Part shown: in pieces, positions 12,564-19,039 of the stretch | Position numbering within the stretch: the stretch's first letter is position 1 | Layout: every line of letters begins with the position of its first letter | NCBI RefSeq assembly: GCF_003991155.1 | Contig: NZ_CP031293.1 | Source: Escherichia coli | GTDB taxonomy: Bacteria > Pseudomonadota > Gammaproteobacteria > Enterobacterales > Enterobacteriaceae | Direction: 5' to 3' (one strand) | DNA: 64,000 nucleotides | Made by a program: the position numbers and the translations under genes | The notes under the pieces: generated by a model | The model's database searches: none | Seen by the model: only the letters and a program-made list of their open reading frames with translations | What the model was told of the DNA's origin: nothing

Positions 12564-12735
12564 CCTTTCTTAAAATAACGTCTCAGTACGCTATTTCATG
12601 ATTGCCCGCAAAAATATTCATTAATATTTCTATTGTTTTAACAAAGAAGGCACAAGGCTTTAATTGCAAAGCAAGATCGCCGTCAAAACAAGAGTGTGCA
12701 ATAACCGGTTATAATAATTCCACCCTCACCAAAAT

Positions 12736-13386
12736 ATGGTCCAGAACATCATGTCAGCTTACCTAAAAAAAGCGTTATCGATTCATAGTGATGAATTTCG
12801 CCCATACGGAAACGTAATTTCTGCAATAAATGTAGATTCATTGCTTAAATACCTTAAAGAGGAAATTTCTGTACCTGAGGATCAGGTGGCATATGTCAGA
12901 AGCGATGAGCGCTTAAAGCAATACCCCGCCGTGAGCGACATTCAGCGCCAAATCTACGGTGGAATGCCCGTTCAGGCTGGGTACGTTTGTGGGGTAAATA
13001 CCACCCAGGATGGCTTTGAATATCACCAGGGAAGTGAAGTCATTATCGCCGCCAGCGATTTTTTCCTGTTTTTAGGTAAACGAGAGTTGATGCAGGGTGA
13101 CACGTTTAATGGTGAACGTGCAGAGCCGTTTTTCATTCCGGCAAAATCGGTGATTGAACTTTATAGCACAACGCTACATTACTGCCCTATGAGTATCAAT
13201 GCACAACCTTTTAGTGCAGCGATTATTCTTCTTGATGGAACTAATGAAGATATTGATGGCAAGAATAAACCAACAATATTAAGCAAGCGAAATACCTGGT
13301 TTATCGCCCATGAAAGTTTCACTGAGCATCCTTGCCCATTATTAAAAGGGCCGCATCTTTGCGTGAATGATATTATTCATGGGTGA
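12736..13386 (+). CDS. Cupin-like protein of unknown function (ureidoglycolate-lyase-like N-terminal motif; possibly DUF4867-type)
   Basis: 216-aa ORF with no K-12 counterpart at this locus; AT-rich codon usage; motif EFRPYGNVI resembles the AllA-family N-terminus; alternative start at MSAYLKK (12751). Confidence 0.6.
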   Translation: MVQNIMSAYLKKALSIHSDEFRPYGNVISAINVDSLLKYLKEEISVPEDQVAYVRSDERLKQYPAVSDIQRQIYGGMPVQAGYVCGVNTTQDGFEYHQGSEVIIAASDFFLFLGKRELMQGDTFNGERAEPFFIPAKSVIELYSTTLHYCPMSINAQPFSAAIILLDGTNEDIDGKNKPTILSKRNTWFIAHESFTEHPCPLLKGPHLCVNDIIHG

Positions 13387-13390
13387 AAAT

Positions 13391-13410
13391 GGCGAAGATT
13401 TCTCTTCGCC
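13391..13410. terminator. Shared hairpin between convergent island genes
   Basis: GGCGAAGA-TTTC-TCTTCGCC perfect stem-loop in the 30-bp gap between the cupin-like gene stop (13386) and the hydrolase-like gene stop (13417). Confidence 0.5.
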
Positions 13411-13416
13411 TGTTCT

Positions 13417-16071
13417 TTACCCGGCAATTACCGCCACGCTGTCTTTTGTTCGCACGCGTGGTGGCATGGTCAGACCGCAGCGATCCCACTCATTCCCCTG
13501 CCATGCACTCGCAAAATAATAATGATTCGCTGCCGATGGGTAGACCACGACCGCCAGTTCATTACGCTTTTTTAGTAAAGACTGTGGCAAGGTGAAACGA
13601 TATTCCGGCCAGCCCTTTTCGGCAATTAACGTATCGTTAAGCCAGATAGCAACGCTTCCCTGCACTTGCGGTAAATAAAGCTCAATATCGTCGGTAATCG
13701 TCTCCAGCGCAAAGCGTAACTGATAATGTCCCGGACCACACCACGTCTCCATCCCCTGCTGCTCCCACCCTTTTGTTACCTCAACGGGTCGGGAAACGTT
13801 ATCAACCAGCAGTTGCCAGTGCTTATCCAGCACCACCTCGTGGCGACTTTCCACTACCTGCAATGAAAAGCAACGGGCCTGCCAGGGCTCGATTTGTAGC
13901 GGATAACTTCCCGTGAGATGCTCTTCCAGCACTGAAACCTCTCCCGTTGCAAGATGCCACTCCGACAACTGCCCACTGAGGCCCGGAAAATGTAGCCAGC
14001 CGTAGAGCGGGGTATCTCCGTCGTTAAATACGCTGACGTAACGCGATGTTTCATCCTGGGTAATTCGCGTCCAGACGGCAGTTTTCCGGGAGGGATAGTC
14101 AACAAAGGGGTGATCGTTTTTCAGCGTGTCGGCTAACGTGCTGCACTGCGGTTGCGCCTCAATCAGTTTTTGCAGCCTTTCGGTGAGAGAACGATCTTCA
14201 CCTTTTTCCTCGCTATATGCCGCAAGCTCGCCGGCGATCAGAAGCTGGCCACCAGCGGCGACAAAGTGCTCCAGTTGGCTCAGCGTGGCGGCTGATTTCA
14301 CCACCTTAACGTCCGCTAACAGAAGCGCAGGGAAATTCATGCCGTTAATGCGCGTTCCATCAGCCTGGAGCAAATTCTCTTCATCAATAAAGAAATATTC
14401 AAATCCCTGAGCGCTGAGTTGTTTTGCCCAATATTCGCCTGACTGCCCTTCGTTGCCATCCACGCCACAGTGCCAGAAAGTCCGTTTGGGATAGAGTACG
14501 CCAACATCAACGTACGGCTCTCCCTGCTCAAGAAATTCGGCAAGGCGACCAGATTCCTGAGCAAACCCAGCGTGGAAGGCGTACCAGGGCTGGAAGTTAA
14601 CGCCCGGCGCAAAATCAAAACGCGGGTTACTTAATACGTCGTCATTTGCCTCGCCATCCGTCAGCCAGAACGCGTGCATCAAAAATTGCCGCGCACCGAG
14701 GAGGTGATGGCGCAATGCCTGCAACCGGATGTCATGCAGTGAAATTTCCCACTGCCCGGCAGCAAAATGTGTGCATGGCTTCACCCGCGCATAATATTGC
14801 TCAACAATGCACCCTTTACGCCCATGAGCGCGCGCCACAGAGTCGCCAACCTTCGCCGCCATCTGCGGCTCGCTATTTCGCGAATCGACAGCCGTAATAT
14901 CCCGCCAGCCATCGAGAGCAAAGTAATCCATAGCAAAATTACACCGGTTATCTTCGGTGATGATTTTACTGGCGAAATTCCAGCTACTAACGTGACCTAA
15001 TACTTCATGACCACTTAGCTGTATTCCCCGCTGGTGCGCCCATTCTGACAACGTACCAAAAAAGGCCTGCATCGCCTGGCTGGAATAACAGGAAAGCAGC
15101 TCACAGCGCCGACGTGCGGTACGACTGCCAATGTCCATAACTAACGACATCAGGTTTTCTGCCAGGCAGTAAGGTGCCTGTTGCAATGCATCAACAAACC
15201 TTTTTTCATACATTAAGGAGGATTTGACCGCGCCAGTATGTTCATTCCATTGCCAGAAACAGGCGTGTGGCTGGTCGAAAAAGAGATACGCCACCGTCTT
15301 ACCAAAATGATCGCCAAAAGCGCGGGCGTAAGGTTCATAGCCGACACGAATAAAATTTTCTGCCGCTTCGGGCATCAGGTAATTAATCATCCGTGAGGTC
15401 AAGCAACGCGCCGCGGCAAAGAGCGTCACTACCGTTTCCGCACCCCAGGGCAGGTCGCTTCCCGTAAAGGTGACCTCAAATTCCTCTGTGGTTGCTTTGG
15501 TGATGCGGGCCAATGAAGAAACATCAACAATTTCATCTGCATTGCACTCCCCTGATGAAGAGGTGGCATACGCTGCGACAATTTCCCATTCATCCCACGC
15601 CGGTTTACCGCCAGCAAAAATCCACTCCATTCCACACTGCTGTAGCGCCTGCGCATCCGCAGAGCGGATCCCGGAAAGGTGACATGTCAGTACATCTGCA
15701 GACCGGCTGGACTGGCTCCAGAAAAGATGGCGCTCACGCAGCTCATCTCTCCCTTCAACGGTCCTTCCCCCGGCGTGCCCGGAAAGCCAGTTGTAATCAT
15801 CGTAGATGCCCATCATCAGCCCAATATTGGCAGCTTTATCAGCCGTGTAGCGACAGGCTGCCAGCCACTCCTCACTGAGATAACTCTCCAGCGGAAGACT
15901 CAGACGTGCGGCTATCTGAAATGAACCATACCCTCCCGCCTGCAGTTGCCTCAGTTGGCTGTCGATCTGCTTTTTGTCCGGAATGGTATGCCAGAACCAG
16001 TAGGTTGCAGGCAGGTGCCATACATCAGGATTTTTAAAGTTTTGGCGTGCCTGTGCTAACGAATCATTCAT
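13417..16071 (-). CDS. Large cytoplasmic hydrolase-like protein (putative glycoside hydrolase, family unassigned)
   Basis: Track ORF 13417..16104; start chosen at MNDSLAQARQ (ATG at 16071) because of the AGGGGGAAAGCC RBS 6 nt upstream; 884 aa; no signal peptide; C-terminal region looks beta-sandwich/carbohydrate-binding-like; no K-12 homolog recalled. Confidence 0.75.
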   Translation of the reverse strand: MNDSLAQARQNFKNPDVWHLPATYWFWHTIPDKKQIDSQLRQLQAGGYGSFQIAARLSLPLESYLSEEWLAACRYTADKAANIGLMMGIYDDYNWLSGHAGGRTVEGRDELRERHLFWSQSSRSADVLTCHLSGIRSADAQALQQCGMEWIFAGGKPAWDEWEIVAAYATSSSGECNADEIVDVSSLARITKATTEEFEVTFTGSDLPWGAETVVTLFAAARCLTSRMINYLMPEAAENFIRVGYEPYARAFGDHFGKTVAYLFFDQPHACFWQWNEHTGAVKSSLMYEKRFVDALQQAPYCLAENLMSLVMDIGSRTARRRCELLSCYSSQAMQAFFGTLSEWAHQRGIQLSGHEVLGHVSSWNFASKIITEDNRCNFAMDYFALDGWRDITAVDSRNSEPQMAAKVGDSVARAHGRKGCIVEQYYARVKPCTHFAAGQWEISLHDIRLQALRHHLLGARQFLMHAFWLTDGEANDDVLSNPRFDFAPGVNFQPWYAFHAGFAQESGRLAEFLEQGEPYVDVGVLYPKRTFWHCGVDGNEGQSGEYWAKQLSAQGFEYFFIDEENLLQADGTRINGMNFPALLLADVKVVKSAATLSQLEHFVAAGGQLLIAGELAAYSEEKGEDRSLTERLQKLIEAQPQCSTLADTLKNDHPFVDYPSRKTAVWTRITQDETSRYVSVFNDGDTPLYGWLHFPGLSGQLSEWHLATGEVSVLEEHLTGSYPLQIEPWQARCFSLQVVESRHEVVLDKHWQLLVDNVSRPVEVTKGWEQQGMETWCGPGHYQLRFALETITDDIELYLPQVQGSVAIWLNDTLIAEKGWPEYRFTLPQSLLKKRNELAVVVYPSAANHYYFASAWQGNEWDRCGLTMPPRVRTKDSVAVIAG

Positions 16072-17563
16072 GGCTTTCCCCCTTCTTAATCGGCGGAACA
16101 TCACAATGACAAATGTATGTCAAAATGGCATACAGCGCCGCGCCCACCAGCATCGCCACCACTACGCCAATATTTGCTGTCGCAAACACGCTGGTTTTGG
16201 TTTCTGCCGTCAGTAAGAAGCCGACCAGGTGAGCAATCCACGGATCGCCTGAGGTGATGGTTCCCATGCCGATAACCGATGCAACAAACAGCGATAATAA
16301 TGCCGTCCAGCGACCGTTACGCCCGCCAAGCCCCGCGGGCTGCGCCATATCAGTGTTCCAGTGCAAGCGTTTTTGCCGGGCAAAGTCGACAAGCTGGATT
16401 GCGCCCATCGATCCCAATACGACGGATACCGTTGCCAGAAAAGACTGAAAGGTTGCGAGGAACGAGTCAGAAACAAACAATAAGTAGAAGGCACCGAATG
16501 CGATAATGACCGCATTGATAGCAGTGGTGGTTGAACGACTGGCTGGAACGCCCATTGCCAGCAATGCGAGGCCTGAGCTGTAAACACCTGTAATGGCTGC
16601 CGCCAGCAGGGAGATGATGATCACGATTGAAAACGGCACATAGAACCAAAACGGCAGGAACGAGGTTAAGGCCGCAATCGGTTCGGACGCTGCTGCTCCG
16701 CTCAGTTCCGGGTTACTGTCGGCCAGCAGGGCACCTAAAATCAGCAGGATGGAAACCGGAAGCGAAATCCCAAGCGACGTCCAGAAAATCACTTTCCCGG
16801 CAGCGGTTTTGCGCGGCAGGTAACGGGCGAAATCACCGCCATAGTTGAGAAAGCCCAGCCCAACCATCGTCATTGCCATCACCATGCCGCCGATAAACGT
16901 TAAAAATCCGGCATCGGGAGCAGCACCCGCCTGCGACCAGTGAATATGTGGCAGGATCAGGATAATAAAGATGATGCTCATTCCGCCCGTTAACCATGCA
17001 ATATACTTTTCTACCTTCATGATGAGCTGGTGGCCGTAGATGGCAACGGACATAGTCAATACTAAGGTCACCACGAACCAGCCCAACAGGCACCCTAAGG
17101 TAGGGTGACCGTTTTCTGCTGCAAATACGGTTGGCCATAACCGGGCAAAGAGGGCGGCGCCAGTGGTCGAGGACAACGTAATAATGGTGATTTTCCAGCC
17201 CATATTGGAAATATAGGCAAATAAAGTGGGGATCTTATTCCCATGATAACCAAAGGCAAATCGGGTCTGCGTTAAGGTAGGCAGCCCGGTGCGTGGCCCA
17301 CCAACGGCCAGAACCCCCACCAGCGTGCTGGATAAAAAATAGCCCACGACACCGGCAACAATCGCCTGCCAGAGGCTTAACCCCAGTGAGTAAACATAAA
17401 TCCCATAGGTAATACCGAGGATGGATACATTCCATGAAAACCAGATCGGGAAAAGTCCGGCAGGCGAACCATAACGTTCGTTATCACTAACCGGGTTTAC
17501 CCCATTGGTTTCCACCTTCATCGTACCTGAAACATCAGATGGGTTCTGGGCTTGGCTCGTCAT
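16064..17563 (-). CDS. NCS1-family (nucleobase/nucleoside/vitamin:cation symporter) permease
   Basis: Start set at MTSQAQNPSD after a GAGAGGAAAT RBS within the longer track ORF; about 499 aa, highly hydrophobic with multiple predicted TM helices; resembles purine-cytosine/allantoin/hydantoin permeases. Confidence 0.8.
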   Translation of the reverse strand: MTSQAQNPSDVSGTMKVETNGVNPVSDNERYGSPAGLFPIWFSWNVSILGITYGIYVYSLGLSLWQAIVAGVVGYFLSSTLVGVLAVGGPRTGLPTLTQTRFAFGYHGNKIPTLFAYISNMGWKITIITLSSTTGAALFARLWPTVFAAENGHPTLGCLLGWFVVTLVLTMSVAIYGHQLIMKVEKYIAWLTGGMSIIFIILILPHIHWSQAGAAPDAGFLTFIGGMVMAMTMVGLGFLNYGGDFARYLPRKTAAGKVIFWTSLGISLPVSILLILGALLADSNPELSGAAASEPIAALTSFLPFWFYVPFSIVIIISLLAAAITGVYSSGLALLAMGVPASRSTTTAINAVIIAFGAFYLLFVSDSFLATFQSFLATVSVVLGSMGAIQLVDFARQKRLHWNTDMAQPAGLGGRNGRWTALLSLFVASVIGMGTITSGDPWIAHLVGFLLTAETKTSVFATANIGVVVAMLVGAALYAILTYICHCDVPPIKKGESHE

Positions 17564-17564
17564 T

Positions 17565-18782
17565 TTATTTCCTCTCATATTGAGCAAGACGTGATAGTAC
17601 GGCTTCATACTCAGGCATGTTCGATGCGCCTTCCCGCTCGACCGCCAGAGAAGCAAACGCAGAGGCAAATTTTGCTGCACTGAGCAACGGCTGGCCCTGC
17701 GCAATCGCCGCAGCAAACGCACCGTTAAACGCATCCCCCGCACCGGTGGTGTCAATACTTACTGCTTTTAACGCTGGAATATGGGTAAATTGTTCACCGT
17801 CATAAATCAGCGCCCCTTGAGAACCCATCGTAATAATGATGTTTTTTGCCCCCAGGGATTTTATGGTTTGCGCCGCTTCTTTCGCACTCTCGATATCATT
17901 AATCTCGACACCGGACATCAGCGACGCTTCTGTTTCATTCGGTGTCAGATAATCAACATATTGCAGGCATTCTTTTGCCTGGTCAGAATAAGGGGCTGGG
18001 TTAAGGATAGTTTTCACGCCCGACCGATGTGCCATATTTAGTGCCAGCGTGGTTGCTTCAAAGTTATTTTCCAACTGTGTCAAAAATATTTTGGCGTCCG
18101 TCAACTCACCCGCAATACTGGCAACTTCCGCTTCAGTGATATATTGATTGGCGCCAGAATAAATCGCGATCTTGTTTTCACCAGCAGGCTCCGAAACATA
18201 TATTATGGCGCTTCCTGTTTTATGCTCTTCGTCCTGGTAGAGGGTAAAGCTGCGGATATCGGATGAAGAGAGATGATCATGCGCCATCTGGCCGAAATGG
18301 TCGTTGCCAACTTTGCCGACGAAGTGTACCTGGACGGGACATTTGCTGGCTGCCATCGCCTGGTTTGCGCCCTTGCCGCCAGGTCCAATGATGGTATTGC
18401 TGGCAAGAATTGATTCGCCGCTTTTAGGGAAGCGATCAACTTTGGCAATAATATCGACATTAAAAGATCCTAATATACAAACTTTGCTTATCATTATTTT
18501 CCCTTTTTTGTTTGTCATCGAGTTTTTTCGCCAGTTGACCTGATTGAGGAACTTTTCAATAGAGGTACCAACGTTATTAACGGGCTGAGAATGGAAAATC
18601 CGACGCAATATTATTGCTCCGCCGTGACAACGCTCAACACCCCCTTGCTCCGCTAATAAATTTAAATCATTACGGATCGTTTCTTTACTGACAGAGAATA
18701 AGATGGCGAGTTGATTAACCGTAGCCCGCTCATGTTTATTCAAATATGCCAATATTTGACGTTGTCTTTCTTTCCCAAACAT
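17565..18782 (-). CDS. DeoR-type HTH domain fused to a ribokinase/PfkB-family carbohydrate kinase domain
   Basis: 405-aa ORF; N-terminal about 60 aa ERQRQILAYLNKHERATVNQLAILFSVSKETIRNDLNLLAEQGGVERCHGGAI is a DeoR-family HTH; C-terminal about 305 aa carries PfkB motifs GPGGKGANQA and DTTGAGDAFNGAF; GAGGTG RBS; stop 1 nt before the permease ATG. Confidence 0.8.
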   Translation of the reverse strand: MFGKERQRQILAYLNKHERATVNQLAILFSVSKETIRNDLNLLAEQGGVERCHGGAIILRRIFHSQPVNNVGTSIEKFLNQVNWRKNSMTNKKGKIMISKVCILGSFNVDIIAKVDRFPKSGESILASNTIIGPGGKGANQAMAASKCPVQVHFVGKVGNDHFGQMAHDHLSSSDIRSFTLYQDEEHKTGSAIIYVSEPAGENKIAIYSGANQYITEAEVASIAGELTDAKIFLTQLENNFEATTLALNMAHRSGVKTILNPAPYSDQAKECLQYVDYLTPNETEASLMSGVEINDIESAKEAAQTIKSLGAKNIIITMGSQGALIYDGEQFTHIPALKAVSIDTTGAGDAFNGAFAAAIAQGQPLLSAAKFASAFASLAVEREGASNMPEYEAVLSRLAQYERK

Positions 18783-18987
18783 GATTTCACCTCACGTAAC
18801 ATTTATATCTTTTGTAATTTTCTGATTCCATGAATCCTTTCACACTACCATCACGAAAACAAAAACAAACGGGAATTTTTGGAGGAAAGGTTTTTTTATT
18901 CAATGGGATAGTGAGAGGGGAATGTTGTTTTGAAAAAACACTCCCGAAAAATGCGTGGGAAAGCGCTTTCAATCGTAAACGGAATGC

Positions 18988-19019
18988 AAAAAAAAGCCAG
19001 TCAGTGTGACCTGACTGGC
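18988..19019 (-). terminator. rpoC rho-independent terminator
   Basis: GCCAGTCAG-GTCACA-CTGACTGGC hairpin followed by a T8 run on the minus strand, 20 nt downstream of the rpoC stop. Confidence 0.85.
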
Positions 19020-19039
19020 TTATTTCTTAAGAAGAGCGA

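What the first reader, a model, noticed from the sequence alone, without database searches (positions are those of the whole stretch)
17565..18782. Single-polypeptide fusion of a DeoR-family HTH to a complete ribokinase/PfkB kinase domain
The first about 60 residues form a canonical DeoR-type helix-turn-helix, but the usual DeoR C-terminal sugar-phosphate sensor domain is replaced by a full-length PfkB-fold kinase carrying both signature motifs (GGKGANQA and DTTGAGDAFNGAF). By analogy with ROK-family repressors, this could be a one-component regulator that senses its ligand through the kinase fold, a bifunctional kinase-repressor, or both. An in-frame internal ATG (MISKVCILGSF, near 18490) preceded by an AAAAGGGAAAATA stretch could also let the kinase domain be made alone. 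The gene is notably AT-rich compared with flanking core genes.
Basis: partly seen in the sequence, partly recalled or inferred. Interest (0 to 1): 0.65.

Follow-up and report, generated by a model that had tools for sequence, protein, structure and literature searches.

The report
Ribokinase fused to its own regulator
This E. coli accessory gene really does encode a DNA-binding domain fused to a complete ribose kinase; it belongs to a widespread but barely studied family whose members head small sugar-salvage operons and very probably control their own promoter through a conserved repeat that I could pinpoint.

Summary
Window 17565-18782 (- strand) is one intact 405-aa ORF with a DeoR-type HTH (residues 6-59), a 36-residue flexible linker and a complete PfkB ribokinase with every catalytic and ligand residue. 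It is E. coli, in a 6.5-kb accessory island (12576-19036) between thiH and rpoC, found in 49 of 5,426 complete genomes and at the same site in some Salmonella.

The fusion is not new. Hundreds of Gammaproteobacteria carry it, always annotated "ribokinase". One paralogue, Salmonella STM3547/RikA, was shown in 2026 to be a ribose kinase made from an internal Met.

This analysis adds four points:
- The HTH is under purifying selection as strong as the kinase.
- The gene heads at least five different transporter-plus-hydrolase operons.
- A tandem repeat TTYYGTTT-N2-TTYYGTTT lies 90-128 nt upstream of 46 of 64 fusion genes. Here it is at 18857-18874, followed after 12 nt by a CRP-like site and a class-II-spaced -10.
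- The internal ATG (18492-18494) and its AAGGG motif co-evolve across lineages.

Best reading: a bifunctional ribokinase and autoregulator, also made as a kinase-only isoform. DNA binding, the effector, the sign of regulation and the operon's substrate are untested.

The parts
17565..18782 (-). Full-length ORF, 405 aa: DeoR-type HTH, linker and PfkB ribokinase (RefSeq WP_000467087.1, annotated 'rbsK: ribokinase')
18606..18767 (-). Winged HTH_DeoR domain (residues 6-59). The recognition-helix residues T35, R37 and D39 are invariant in 62 homologues.
   Evidence: Pfam; alignments; AF2 pLDDT 75-92; dN/dS 0.04-0.12
18495..18605 (-). Inter-domain linker (residues 60-96). It is predicted to be flexible and is A-rich and unstructured as RNA.
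   Evidence: AF2 pLDDT below 50 for residues 61-96; RNA fold z = -0.03
18500..18505 (-). Internal SD-like AAGGGA, encoded by the conserved Lys-Gly of the linker, 6 nt before the internal ATG
18492..18494 (-). Internal in-frame ATG (M97). It would give a 309-aa kinase-only isoform, the same length as E. coli RbsK.
   Evidence: precedent M90 of RikA in PMC13432705
17616..18485 (-). PfkB ribokinase domain (residues 100-389). The catalytic Asp350 codon is at 17733-17735.
18857..18874 (-). Candidate operator: tandem direct repeat TCCCGTTTGTTTTTGTTT (two TTYYGTTT half-sites 10 bp apart), about -79 to -62 from the inferred transcription start
   Evidence: conserved in the Salmonella copy
18977..18984 (-). 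Isolated perfect half-site TTCCGTTT, 110 bp upstream of the main repeat; possible auxiliary operator
   Evidence: a 13-nt block is conserved in Salmonella amid diverged flanks
18829..18844 (-). CRP-like site TGTGAAAGGATTCATG, 12 nt downstream of the repeat
   Evidence: same offset in 37 of 46 loci; at most 2 mismatches in 39 of 46
18802..18807 (-). -10-like hexamer TATAAA, 29 nt from the centre of the CRP-like site (class II spacing). No -35 match is present.
18788..18793 (-). Strong Shine-Dalgarno GAGGTG for the annotated start (duplex -10.0 kcal/mol, against -5.3 for the internal site)
18994..19021 (-). rpoC intrinsic terminator, which isolates the island operon from rpoBC transcription
16064..17563 (-). 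NCS1-family permease (499 aa). Its start lies 1 nt after the kinase stop codon.
13417..16071 (-). 884-aa cytoplasmic GH106-like glycoside hydrolase of unknown specificity. It overlaps the permease stop by 8 nt.
12736..13386 (+). DUF4867 gene, convergent with the operon. It is part of the island but has no operator-like repeat upstream.
12576..19036 (.). Accessory island that replaces yjaZ and sroH of K-12, between thiH and rpoC

Best explanation
The gene encodes a bifunctional protein: an active D-ribose kinase whose N-terminal DeoR-type winged HTH makes it the dedicated regulator of its own three-gene operon (HTH-kinase, NCS1 permease, GH106-like glycosidase).

Proposed pathway (inferred). 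The permease imports an unidentified ribose-containing glycoside, the cytoplasmic glycosidase releases ribose, and the kinase makes ribose 5-phosphate.

Proposed regulation (inferred). A dimer held together by the PfkB beta-clasp places its two tethered HTH domains on the tandem repeat at 18857-18874. That repeat lies immediately upstream of a CRP site in a class-II-type promoter. When ribose (with or without ATP) binds the kinase and closes its lid, DNA binding changes. I favour repression relieved by ribose, at about 60:40 over activation.

Two products (inferred for this gene). The same mRNA also yields a 309-aa kinase-only isoform from the internal ATG M97. This would let the cell make much enzyme and little regulator.

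Shown versus inferred.
- Shown here by computation: the architecture, intact catalytic residues, selection on the HTH, the conserved operator/CRP/-10 layout, and co-evolution of the internal start with its SD.
- Shown by others for a paralogue (RikA): ribose kinase activity and internal initiation.
- Inferred: DNA binding, the effector, the sign of regulation, and the substrate of the operon.
For: Architecture and enzyme
- HTH_DeoR plus PfkB.
- TIGR02152 above its curated cut-off.
- E. coli RbsK residues map as N14/D16 to N108/D110, K43/N46 to K137/N140, E143 to E238, N187 to N282, D249 to D344 and D255 to D350. All are invariant or nearly so in 22-62 homologues.
- RikA/STM3547, a paralogue with the same architecture, phosphorylates ribose and needs the equivalent Asp (PMC13432705).

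The HTH is functional
- dN/dS is 0.04-0.12, similar to the kinase at 0.02-0.08.
- It folds confidently in AF2.

Operator
- TTYYGTTT-N2-TTYYGTTT at 15/16 or better occurs 90-128 nt upstream of 46 of 64 fusion genes.
- It gives 1 hit in 1.82 Mb of flanking DNA and 0 of 15 hits at stand-alone ribokinase genes.
- There is one hit in the 64-kb window, against 0.07 expected.
- Exact matches occur in 43 loci, and all but one lie upstream of the fusion gene.
- Shewanella has the same half-site as an inverted repeat.
- The layout of repeat, 12 nt, CRP-like site, then -10 at 29 nt is fixed across operon types.
- This block is about 96% conserved between the E. coli and Salmonella islands, while the flanks have diverged.

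Operon logic
- The fusion gene leads at least five different cassettes, and no other regulator gene sits inside these cassettes.
- One cassette is a nucleoside hydrolase plus a UriT equivalog. That matches a Corynebacterium uridine-utilisation gene set, for which NCBIfam holds UriH, UriT and UriR models, but without a UriR.
- Actinobacterial homologues of the glycosidase sit in operons of ribokinase-like PfkB, an RbsR/CytR-like LacI regulator, NCS1 and GH. This is the same set of functions with a separate regulator.

Internal start
- ATG or GTG at the aligned position co-occurs with an SD-like core in 39 of 51 sequences, against 0 of 14 where the start codon is absent.
- Gly codons just upstream are GGA or GGG in 31 of 42 cases, against 28% elsewhere in the same genes (p = 2e-9, not corrected for phylogeny).
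- The distance from the internal Met to the catalytic Asp is 253 residues here (M97 to D350) and in RikA (M90 to D343).
Against: - No experiment shows DNA binding by any member of the family.
- In the only study of a member (RikA), the protein recovered from the native translation signals was only the 35-kDa short form. The full-length form was not seen, although the authors also report that full-length His-tagged RikA is insoluble.
- AF2 gives no confident contact between the HTH and the kinase, and the linker has pLDDT below 50. So there is no structural basis yet for coupling ligand binding to DNA binding.
- The repeat lies upstream of the CRP-like site, not over the -10 or -35. That position fits an activator or anti-activator as well as a classical repressor.
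- The enrichment statistics are not corrected for shared ancestry of the loci.
- The internal SD is weak (-5.3 kcal/mol), and several lineages have lost the internal start altogether.
- Ribose as the effector and a riboside as the operon's substrate are inferences from context only.
- Only the GH106-like fold of the glycosidase is established.
Confidence: 0.62

Rival explanations
1. Kinase only. In vivo the protein starts at M97. The HTH-coding stretch is an untranslated or rarely translated leader kept by annotation, and the operon is regulated by something else.
For: In RikA, only the short form was recovered from native translation signals, and the short form alone supports growth on ribose. 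Some database entries for relatives begin at the kinase domain and are labelled 'partial'.
Against: The HTH codons evolve with dN/dS of 0.04-0.12, like the kinase. They match Pfam HTH_DeoR at E 2e-17 and keep invariant recognition-helix residues over 62 sequences. The annotated start has the stronger SD (-10.0 against -5.3 kcal/mol). Fourteen sequences from several lineages lack an internal start codon yet keep the HTH. A motif that occurs almost only upstream of fusion genes is left unexplained.
Confidence: 0.08
2. Regulator only. The PfkB domain serves as a ligand sensor and contributes little or no catalysis in vivo, as in ROK-type repressors such as Mlc.
For: The host already has the canonical rbsK. 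The protein scores below the cut-off of the E. coli-type RbsK model (277.8 against 341 bits). [quoted passage not shown]
Against: All catalytic, anion-hole, ATP and K+ site residues are invariant. TIGR02152 scores above its cut-off. RikA supports growth on ribose and needs its catalytic Asp. A selected internal start that makes a kinase-only product makes sense only if catalysis matters.
Confidence: 0.07
3. Same bifunctional protein, but it acts as a ribose-dependent co-activator with CRP rather than as a repressor.
For: The repeat is centred near -70.5 and sits a fixed 12 nt upstream of a CRP-like site centred at -41.5. It does not overlap the -10, and the promoter has no -35. From general knowledge, some DeoR-family proteins are activators (for example E. 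coli FucR), and sites near -61.5 and -71.5 are classical activator positions.
Against: From general knowledge, most DeoR-type HTH proteins are repressors. A protein bound at -79 to -62 would also occupy the place where the RNA polymerase alpha C-terminal domain binds at class II CRP promoters, which would give anti-activation. The extra repeats in Proteus/Providencia and L022/L081, and the distal half-site 110 bp upstream here, fit cooperative or looping repression. Nothing computed here settles the sign.
Confidence: 0.22
4. The upstream repeat is not bound by this protein. It is a T-rich UP-like element, or the site of another factor that happens to accompany these promoters.
For: The repeat is T-rich and lies where the RNA polymerase alpha C-terminal domain contacts DNA. 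No binding data exist.
Against: The G (and the CC) recur with exact 10-bp phase. The motif is absent from 15 stand-alone ribokinase promoters and gives essentially no hits in 1.8 Mb of flanking DNA. It accompanies the fusion gene across five unrelated operon types. In Shewanella the same half-site appears as a palindrome, which is typical of a dimeric transcription-factor operator.
Confidence: 0.08

Closest known systems
RikA / STM3547 of Salmonella Typhimurium (McCormick, Jabbar and Escalante-Semerena, Mol Microbiol 2026; PMC13432705)
   Same: Same architecture: DeoR HTH at residues 2-57 plus PfkB, about 404 aa. It is a proven ATP-dependent ribose kinase whose essential Asp is equivalent to D350. 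An internal Met lies 253 residues before that Asp, as here, and is used as a start in vivo. It is also the first gene of a small transporter-plus-enzyme cluster.
   Different: It is a paralogue, not an orthologue. Loci with the RikA-type context (Proteus, Providencia) are only 45-47% identical to this protein. RikA's neighbours are a GATase-like protein, a DMT transporter and a phosphotriesterase, not NCS1 plus a GH106-like enzyme. The paper did not study the HTH, an operator or regulation. I could not retrieve the STM3547 sequence itself.
Canonical E. coli ribokinase RbsK (PDB 1RKD/1GQT)
   Same: The kinase domain aligns end to end (E 3e-53), with every ribose, ATP and K+ ligand and the catalytic Asp. 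The kinase-only isoform would be 309 aa, like RbsK.
   Different: RbsK has no DNA-binding domain and is regulated by the separate LacI-type repressor RbsR. This protein scores below the cut-off of the E. coli-type RbsK model NF008353.
DeoR-family repressors (AgaR, GlpR, SrlR, DeoR)
   Same: The N-terminal HTH_DeoR matches NCBIfam models for GlpR, AgaR and SrlR over residues 1-75. From memory, the candidate operator of T-rich direct repeats with a CGTTT core resembles published AgaR-type and GlpR-type sites.
   Different: The defining C-terminal DeoRC sugar-phosphate-binding and oligomerisation domain is absent and is replaced by a PfkB kinase.
Enzyme-repressor fusions: NadR, BirA, archaeal RbkR; and ROK repressors (Mlc, NagC)
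   Same: The same logic applies: an HTH is fused to a metabolic enzyme or enzyme-like fold that binds the pathway metabolite. In NadR and RbkR that enzyme is a kinase. This comparison rests on general knowledge and was not tested here.
   Different: The folds and HTH families are unrelated, and no ROK or NadR-type Pfam domain is found in this protein.
YeiI of E. coli K-12
   Same: It is also an HTH plus PfkB fusion, and it lies next to nucleoside salvage genes (nupX, rihB).
   Different: It has a different HTH family (HTH_24), only 21% identity in the kinase, and is closer to pseudouridine kinase. It is uncharacterised. It is therefore an independent fusion event.
Corynebacterium uridine-utilisation genes (UriR, UriT, UriH in NCBIfam) and Bacteroides ribose-utilisation systems
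   Same: In these systems a ribokinase is combined with a transporter and a ribose-releasing hydrolase. Type B fusion operons carry a UriT equivalog and a UriH/RihC-like hydrolase. The Bacteroides systems likewise diversify around ribokinases (abstract of bioRxiv 10.1101/574913).
   Different: In those systems the regulator is a separate protein (the LacI-type UriR; other regulators in Bacteroides). Here it is fused to the kinase.

Membership tests
PfkB ribokinase (NCBIfam TIGR02152, D_ribokin_bact) | Whole-protein score above the curated cut-off of the equivalog model | tested here: met
   313.5 bits against a cut-off of 299.65. The E. coli-type model NF008353 is not reached (277.8 against 341).
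PfkB ribokinase (NCBIfam TIGR02152, D_ribokin_bact) | GXGD anion hole with the catalytic Asp, NXXE-type ATP/Mg site, and the ribose ligands N14, D16, K43, N46 and E143 of E. coli RbsK | tested here: met
   G347-A-G-D350, N282-E-T-E285, N108, D110, K137, N140 and E238 are all present. They are invariant or nearly so in 22-62 homologues.
PfkB ribokinase (NCBIfam TIGR02152, D_ribokin_bact) | ATP-dependent phosphorylation of D-ribose | not testable with these tools
   Shown only for the paralogue RikA (PMC13432705).
DeoR family of transcription regulators | N-terminal HTH_DeoR domain (PF08220) | tested here: met
   Residues 6-59, E 2e-17; a confident winged-helix model.
DeoR family of transcription regulators | C-terminal DeoRC effector-binding and oligomerisation domain (PF00455) | tested here: not met
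   There is no DeoRC hit; residues 100-389 are PfkB. The protein shares only the DNA-binding module with the family.
DeoR family of transcription regulators | Sequence-specific binding to repeated operator half-sites in the target promoter | tested here: inconclusive
   A highly specific, position-conserved tandem repeat lies upstream of 46 of 64 fusion genes, including this one. Binding itself was not, and cannot be, tested here.
RikA-type HTH-PfkB fusion proteins (PMC13432705) | A single polypeptide with a DeoR HTH followed by a ribokinase domain | tested here: met
RikA-type HTH-PfkB fusion proteins (PMC13432705) | In-frame internal Met at the start of the kinase domain, with its own ribosome-binding site | tested here: met
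   M97 with AAGGGA 6 nt upstream. The Met-to-catalytic-Asp distance is the same as in RikA (253 residues). The start codon and the SD-like motif co-evolve. Actual use of the site in this gene was not tested.
RikA-type HTH-PfkB fusion proteins (PMC13432705) | Orthology with STM3547: the conserved neighbourhood STM3548-3550 (GATase-like protein, DMT transporter, phosphotriesterase) | tested here: not met
   The neighbours here are NCS1 and a GH106-like hydrolase. Loci with the RikA-type neighbourhood are 45-47% identical to this protein. It is therefore a paralogue.
   There is no ROK hit; the sensor and enzyme domain is PfkB. The comparison is an analogy of logic only.

The most novel reading that the evidence does not exclude
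One ORF encodes both a repressor and its own antagonist. The full-length HTH-kinase and the internally initiated kinase-only isoform share the PfkB beta-clasp dimer interface. Mixed dimers would carry a single HTH and bind the tandem repeat poorly. The ratio of the two start sites, and not only ribose, would then set operon expression. The very short inferred leader before the first start codon (about 13 nt) and the A-rich, unstructured internal site would bias that ratio. The long flexible linker would also explain how the same protein family uses direct repeats in Enterobacterales and inverted repeats in Shewanella.
Probability: 0.12. Interest if true: 0.7.

Novelty: new member of a known kind. 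Interest (0 to 1): 0.45.

Why it matters
The 2026 RikA study left open what the DeoR domain of these "ribokinases" is for, and even whether it is made. The comparative evidence here says the domain is selected, and it gives a concrete, testable target: an 18-bp repeat next to a CRP site, at a fixed position in dozens of genera.

If confirmed, a large set of genes annotated simply as "ribokinase" would be one-component regulators. They would link several unrelated salvage cassettes (nucleosides, ADP-ribosyl-type conjugates, an unknown glycoside, an unknown sugar acid) to one common signal, ribose.

It would also give a clean bacterial example of two protein isoforms with different functions made from one ORF by internal initiation. 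For genome annotation, it argues against trimming these genes to the internal Met or labelling them "partial".

Tried and rejected
- Sequencing or assembly artefact: rejected. There are 49 identical-length copies in complete genomes, a Salmonella copy, and homologues in dozens of genera.
- Degenerate kinase: rejected on residue mapping.
- Retrieving STM3547 itself: failed. The one genome-contig scan did not return Salmonella LT2. The protein search seeded with the Citrobacter relative returned a different Salmonella paralogue, the 408-aa gene next to ttr and pykF. Identity to RikA is therefore only bracketed through the Proteus and Providencia context orthologues.
- Known RNA elements in the island: none at E of 0.1 or better.
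- Canonical sigma-70 promoter upstream: none on the coding strand. This fits an activator-dependent promoter.
- Internal promoter for the short isoform: there is one weak 9/12 match at 18637-18610, but such matches are hardly above shuffles, so I did not pursue it.
- Operator-like repeat upstream of the DUF4867 gene: none.
- The single off-target exact motif match (L079): it lies upstream of an outer-membrane beta-barrel gene, not a fusion gene, so I treated it as background.
- Literature searches for other characterised DeoR-PfkB fusions, or for a regulon described for them: nothing found beyond the RikA paper.
- Structural coupling between the domains: the AF2 monomer gives no confident interdomain contact. 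A dimer model could not be run.
Full report
**1. What is in the sequence**

Window 17565-18782 on the minus strand is one uninterrupted 405-codon ORF. Pfam finds HTH_DeoR at residues 6-59 (E 2e-17) and PfkB at 100-389 (E 8e-72), and no DeoRC domain. NCBIfam's bacterial ribokinase equivalog TIGR02152 scores 313.5 bits, above its curated cut-off of 299.65. The E. coli-type RbsK model NF008353 is not reached.

The window is E. coli. The gene is WP_000467087.1, annotated "rbsK: ribokinase", and lies just after the rpoC terminator. Homology with K-12 stops at 12575 and resumes at 19037. So 12576-19036 is a 6.5-kb island that replaces yjaZ and sroH.

The island carries four genes:
- the fusion gene;
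- an NCS1 permease that starts 1 nt after the kinase stop;
- an 884-aa protein that overlaps the permease end by 8 nt;
- a convergent DUF4867 gene.

The gene plus its promoter is present once, at 99.7% identity or better, in 49 of 5,426 complete E. coli genomes. The same island sits between rpoC and thiH in some Salmonella, where the protein is 94% identical. GC content is 46% (HTH part 40%), against 52-55% for the neighbours.

**2. Both domains look functional**

Aligned to E. coli RbsK (PDB 1GQT), the ribose ligands, the ATP site, the K+ site and the catalytic base are all present. They map as follows: N14/D16 to N108/D110, K43/N46 to K137/N140, E143 to E238, N187 to N282, TLGSRG to TMGSQG, D249 to D344, and D255 to D350. 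They are invariant or nearly so in alignments of 22 and 62 fusion proteins.

The HTH is equally constrained. R6, T35, R37, D39, R51, G54 and G55 are invariant over 62 sequences down to 44% identity. Pairwise dN/dS for codons 2-60 is 0.04-0.12, against 0.02-0.08 for the kinase.

AlphaFold2 on the 62-sequence alignment gives a confident winged helix (residues 1-58) and a confident kinase. Residues 61-96 have pLDDT below 50, which indicates a flexible tether with no confident interdomain contact. No solved structure covers the N-terminal part.

**3. The family is known, and one member has been studied**

Full-length fusion homologues at 44-81% identity occur in Salmonella, Enterobacter, Serratia, Rahnella, Pectobacterium, Dickeya, Brenneria, Erwinia, Pantoea, Citrobacter, Proteus, Providencia, Aeromonas, Vibrio, Shewanella and others. 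Almost all are named "ribokinase".

McCormick et al. (Mol Microbiol 2026; PMC13432705) reported the following for Salmonella STM3547/RikA, a 404-aa protein with a predicted DeoR domain at residues 2-57:
- It supports growth on ribose.
- It phosphorylates ribose in vitro.
- It needs D343.
- When expressed from its native translation signals it is recovered as a 35-kDa protein that appears to begin at M90.

They did not examine the DeoR domain further, and they note that the full-length His-tagged protein was insoluble.

The RikA neighbourhood (GATase-like protein, DMT transporter, phosphotriesterase) is found in my Proteus and Providencia loci. Those proteins are 45-47% identical to the window protein. 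The window gene is therefore a paralogue, not the orthologue. I could not retrieve the STM3547 sequence itself.

**4. Genomic context: a regulator-kinase that heads interchangeable cassettes**

In nearly all of the roughly 60 loci analysed, the fusion gene is the first gene of a short co-directional cluster. No other regulator gene lies inside these clusters. In Shewanella the gene stands alone, next to a convergent nucleoside hydrolase gene. I distinguish five types:

- **Type A.** A DHDPS/NanA-like lyase, a YhcH/NanQ-like protein, and an MFS or tripartite tricarboxylate transporter. This is the commonest type, found in plant-associated Enterobacterales.
- **Type B.** A RihC/UriH-like nucleoside hydrolase and a UriT uridine-transporter equivalog (677 bits against a cut-off of 600).
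- **Type C.** An ABC transporter and an ADP-ribosylglycohydrolase-family protein.
- **Type D.** The RikA-type cluster.
- **Type E.** This window: NCS1 plus the 884-aa protein. It is also found in Superficieibacter and Salmonella.

The 884-aa protein has no significant Pfam or NCBIfam hit. It models at pLDDT 91.5 and matches GH106 alpha-L-rhamnosidases (6Q2F, E 2e-41; BT_0986) and then GH42 enzymes. It has no obvious N-terminal signal sequence, so I read it as a cytoplasmic glycosidase.

Its actinobacterial homologues (Bifidobacterium, Streptomyces) sit in operons of a ribokinase-like PfkB, an RbsR/CytR-like LacI regulator, NCS1 and the hydrolase. Type B likewise matches a Corynebacterium uridine-utilisation gene set (NCBIfam models UriH, UriT, UriR) but lacks a UriR.

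So in two cases, where Actinobacteria have a kinase plus a separate regulator, the gammaproteobacterial version has the fusion. This is what one expects if the HTH supplies the regulator. The element common to all cassette types is the ribokinase. That makes ribose, the likely product of the hydrolases and the substrate of the kinase, the most economical candidate effector. This last step is inference.

**5. A conserved operator-like element and promoter layout**

Reading the 220 nt upstream of every fusion gene showed tandem 10-bp repeats of TTYYGTTT. Scored as two half-sites 10 bp apart, with at least 15 of 16 positions matching, the element gives these counts:
- 46 of 64 fusion loci, on the coding strand, always 90-128 nt before the start codon;
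- 1 cluster in 1.82 Mb of the remaining locus sequence, both strands;
- 0 of 15 promoters of stand-alone ribokinase genes;
- exactly one site in the 64-kb window, at 18857-18874 (TCCCGTTTGTTTTTGTTT).

The pattern tool agrees. It finds one hit in the window against 0.07 expected. It finds exact matches in 43 loci, one per locus, and all but one lie just upstream of the fusion gene. The exception, L079, precedes an outer-membrane protein gene. In Shewanella the same half-site appears as an inverted repeat, AAACGAAC-N6-GTTCGTTT, at the equivalent position.

The rest of the promoter layout is also fixed:
- Twelve nucleotides downstream of the proximal repeat, in 37 of 46 loci, lies a 16-mer with at most 2 mismatches to TGTGA-N6-TCACA. 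This holds in 39 of 46 loci, against a background of 3e-4 per position. Here the 16-mer is TGTGAAAGGATTCATG at 18829-18844.
- Twenty-nine nucleotides from its centre lies a -10-like hexamer, here TATAAA at 18802-18807. This is the spacing of a class II CRP-dependent promoter.
- No -35 match is present.

Between the E. coli and Salmonella copies of the island, the block from the repeat through the CRP-like site, the -10 and the SD is about 96% identical, while the surrounding intergenic DNA has diverged or carries a 330-bp insertion. An isolated perfect half-site 110 bp upstream (18977-18984) sits in a conserved 13-nt block.

I infer that the repeat is the operator of the fused HTH and that the operon is also under catabolite control. 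The repeat spans about -79 to -62 from the inferred start. That position is compatible with repression by interfering with CRP or the alpha C-terminal domain, and also with co-activation. I favour repression at about 60:40 on family precedent only.

**6. The internal start**

M97 (ATG at 18492-18494) lies two residues before the first beta-strand of the kinase. It is preceded by AAGGGA (18500-18505), which is encoded by a Lys-Gly pair conserved in an otherwise variable linker.

Across non-redundant fusion genes:
- 51 have ATG or GTG at the aligned codon, and 39 of these have an SD-like core 5-12 nt upstream.
- 14 lack a start codon there, and none of them has the motif (Fisher p = 2e-7).
- The losses fall in several separate lineages: Pantoea, Mangrovibacter, Proteus, Leminorella and others.
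- Gly codons in the five residues before the internal start are GGA or GGG in 31 of 42 cases, against 28% elsewhere in the same genes (p = 2e-9).

These tests are not corrected for phylogeny. The RNA around the site is A-rich and no more structured than shuffles.

The Met-to-catalytic-Asp distance is 253 residues, both here and in RikA. So the experimentally used M90 of RikA very probably corresponds to M97. The annotated start has the stronger SD (GAGGTG, -10.0 against -5.3 kcal/mol), but it would sit on a leader of only about 13 nt.

I conclude that both products are probably made: a little full-length regulator-kinase and more kinase-only enzyme.

**7. Comparison with known systems, and novelty**

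The protein meets the sequence criteria for a ribokinase. It carries the DNA-binding module of the DeoR family but not that family's defining C-terminal domain. It is a paralogue of RikA within a large family that databases already hold.

Functionally it works like the enzyme-repressor fusions NadR, BirA and RbkR, and only by analogy like ROK repressors. E. coli K-12 YeiI is an independent, uncharacterised HTH_24-PfkB fusion next to nupX and rihB.

The gene is therefore a new member of a known kind. Three results are new relative to the literature I could find:
- evidence that the HTH is selected and has a defined, testable operator;
- the modular use of the fusion at the head of at least five cassettes;
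- the comparative support for the internal start.

**8. Verdict**

Interest is moderate at 0.45, for two reasons. The architecture is common and one member is already characterised. The regulatory half remains an untested prediction, although it is now a sharply defined one.

Noticed in passing
window 13417-16071 (-); L087 7001-9799; L088 7001-9610: The 884-aa neighbour belongs to a large family with no significant Pfam or NCBIfam match, mostly labelled 'hypothetical'. It has a confident GH106-like fold. In Bifidobacterium and Streptomyces it sits in operons of ribokinase-like PfkB, an RbsR-like LacI regulator, NCS1 and this hydrolase. Its substrate is unknown, possibly a ribofuranoside.
   Followed up: partly
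window 12736-13386 (+): A DUF4867 gene lies convergent with the operon, inside the island in E. coli and Salmonella. No match to it is found in the Superficieibacter locus (L007). It has no operator-like repeat or CRP-like site upstream, and its role is unknown.
   Followed up: partly
window 12576-19036 compared with K-12 L086 1078-2078: The island replaces yjaZ and the small RNA sroH of K-12. The same thiH-rpoC junction is used in Salmonella. There an extra ~330 bp, with a 150-aa ORF called on the opposite strand, separates rpoC from the operon promoter.
   Followed up: partly
window 18977-18984 (-): A solitary perfect half-site TTCCGTTT lies 110 bp (about 10.5 helical turns) upstream of the main repeat. 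It sits in a 13-nt block conserved between E. coli and Salmonella, and could be an auxiliary operator for looping.
   Followed up: partly
L004-L006, L009-L043 and other type A loci, from about 8001 or 7001 onward: The commonest context of the fusion gene is a DHDPS/NanA-like lyase, a YhcH/NanQ-like protein and an MFS or tripartite tricarboxylate transporter, often next to glpR-glpG. It looks like catabolism of an acidic keto-deoxy sugar whose cleavage would release a pentose. No function appears to be assigned.
   Followed up: no
L092 6001-7146; P0245, P0247: Salmonella carries another paralogue (408 aa) next to the ttr tetrathionate genes and pykF. It has Ala instead of the internal Met, so it has no internal start. 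One variant (P0247, 381 aa) has an internal deletion in the kinase, and P0245 has GPSGKGAN instead of GPGGKGAN.
   Followed up: partly
L050 6992-8209: The Providencia alcalifaciens copy has an in-frame stop at codon 172 and is probably a pseudogene.
   Followed up: no
L091 4701-5789 (E. coli K-12 yeiI): YeiI is an HTH_24 winged-helix plus PfkB fusion next to nupX and rihB. It is an independent and still uncharacterised example of the same design in the reference strain.
   Followed up: partly
Protein lists: Annotation of this family is inconsistent. The same architecture is named 'ribokinase', 'PfkB family carbohydrate kinase' or 'DeoR family transcriptional regulator'. Some entries start at the kinase domain and are labelled 'partial'.
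   Followed up: no
L045-L047, L051, L067 upstream regions: In Proteus and Providencia (the RikA-type context) the promoter carries four or more T-rich repeats (TTTTTGYTTT) instead of two. The CRP-like site there has only 1 mismatch to consensus.
   Followed up: no
L079 11915-11932: The only exact operator-pattern match away from a fusion gene lies about 225 nt upstream of an outer-membrane beta-barrel gene in Vibrio mexicanus. It is probably chance, but it could be a regulon member.
   Followed up: partly
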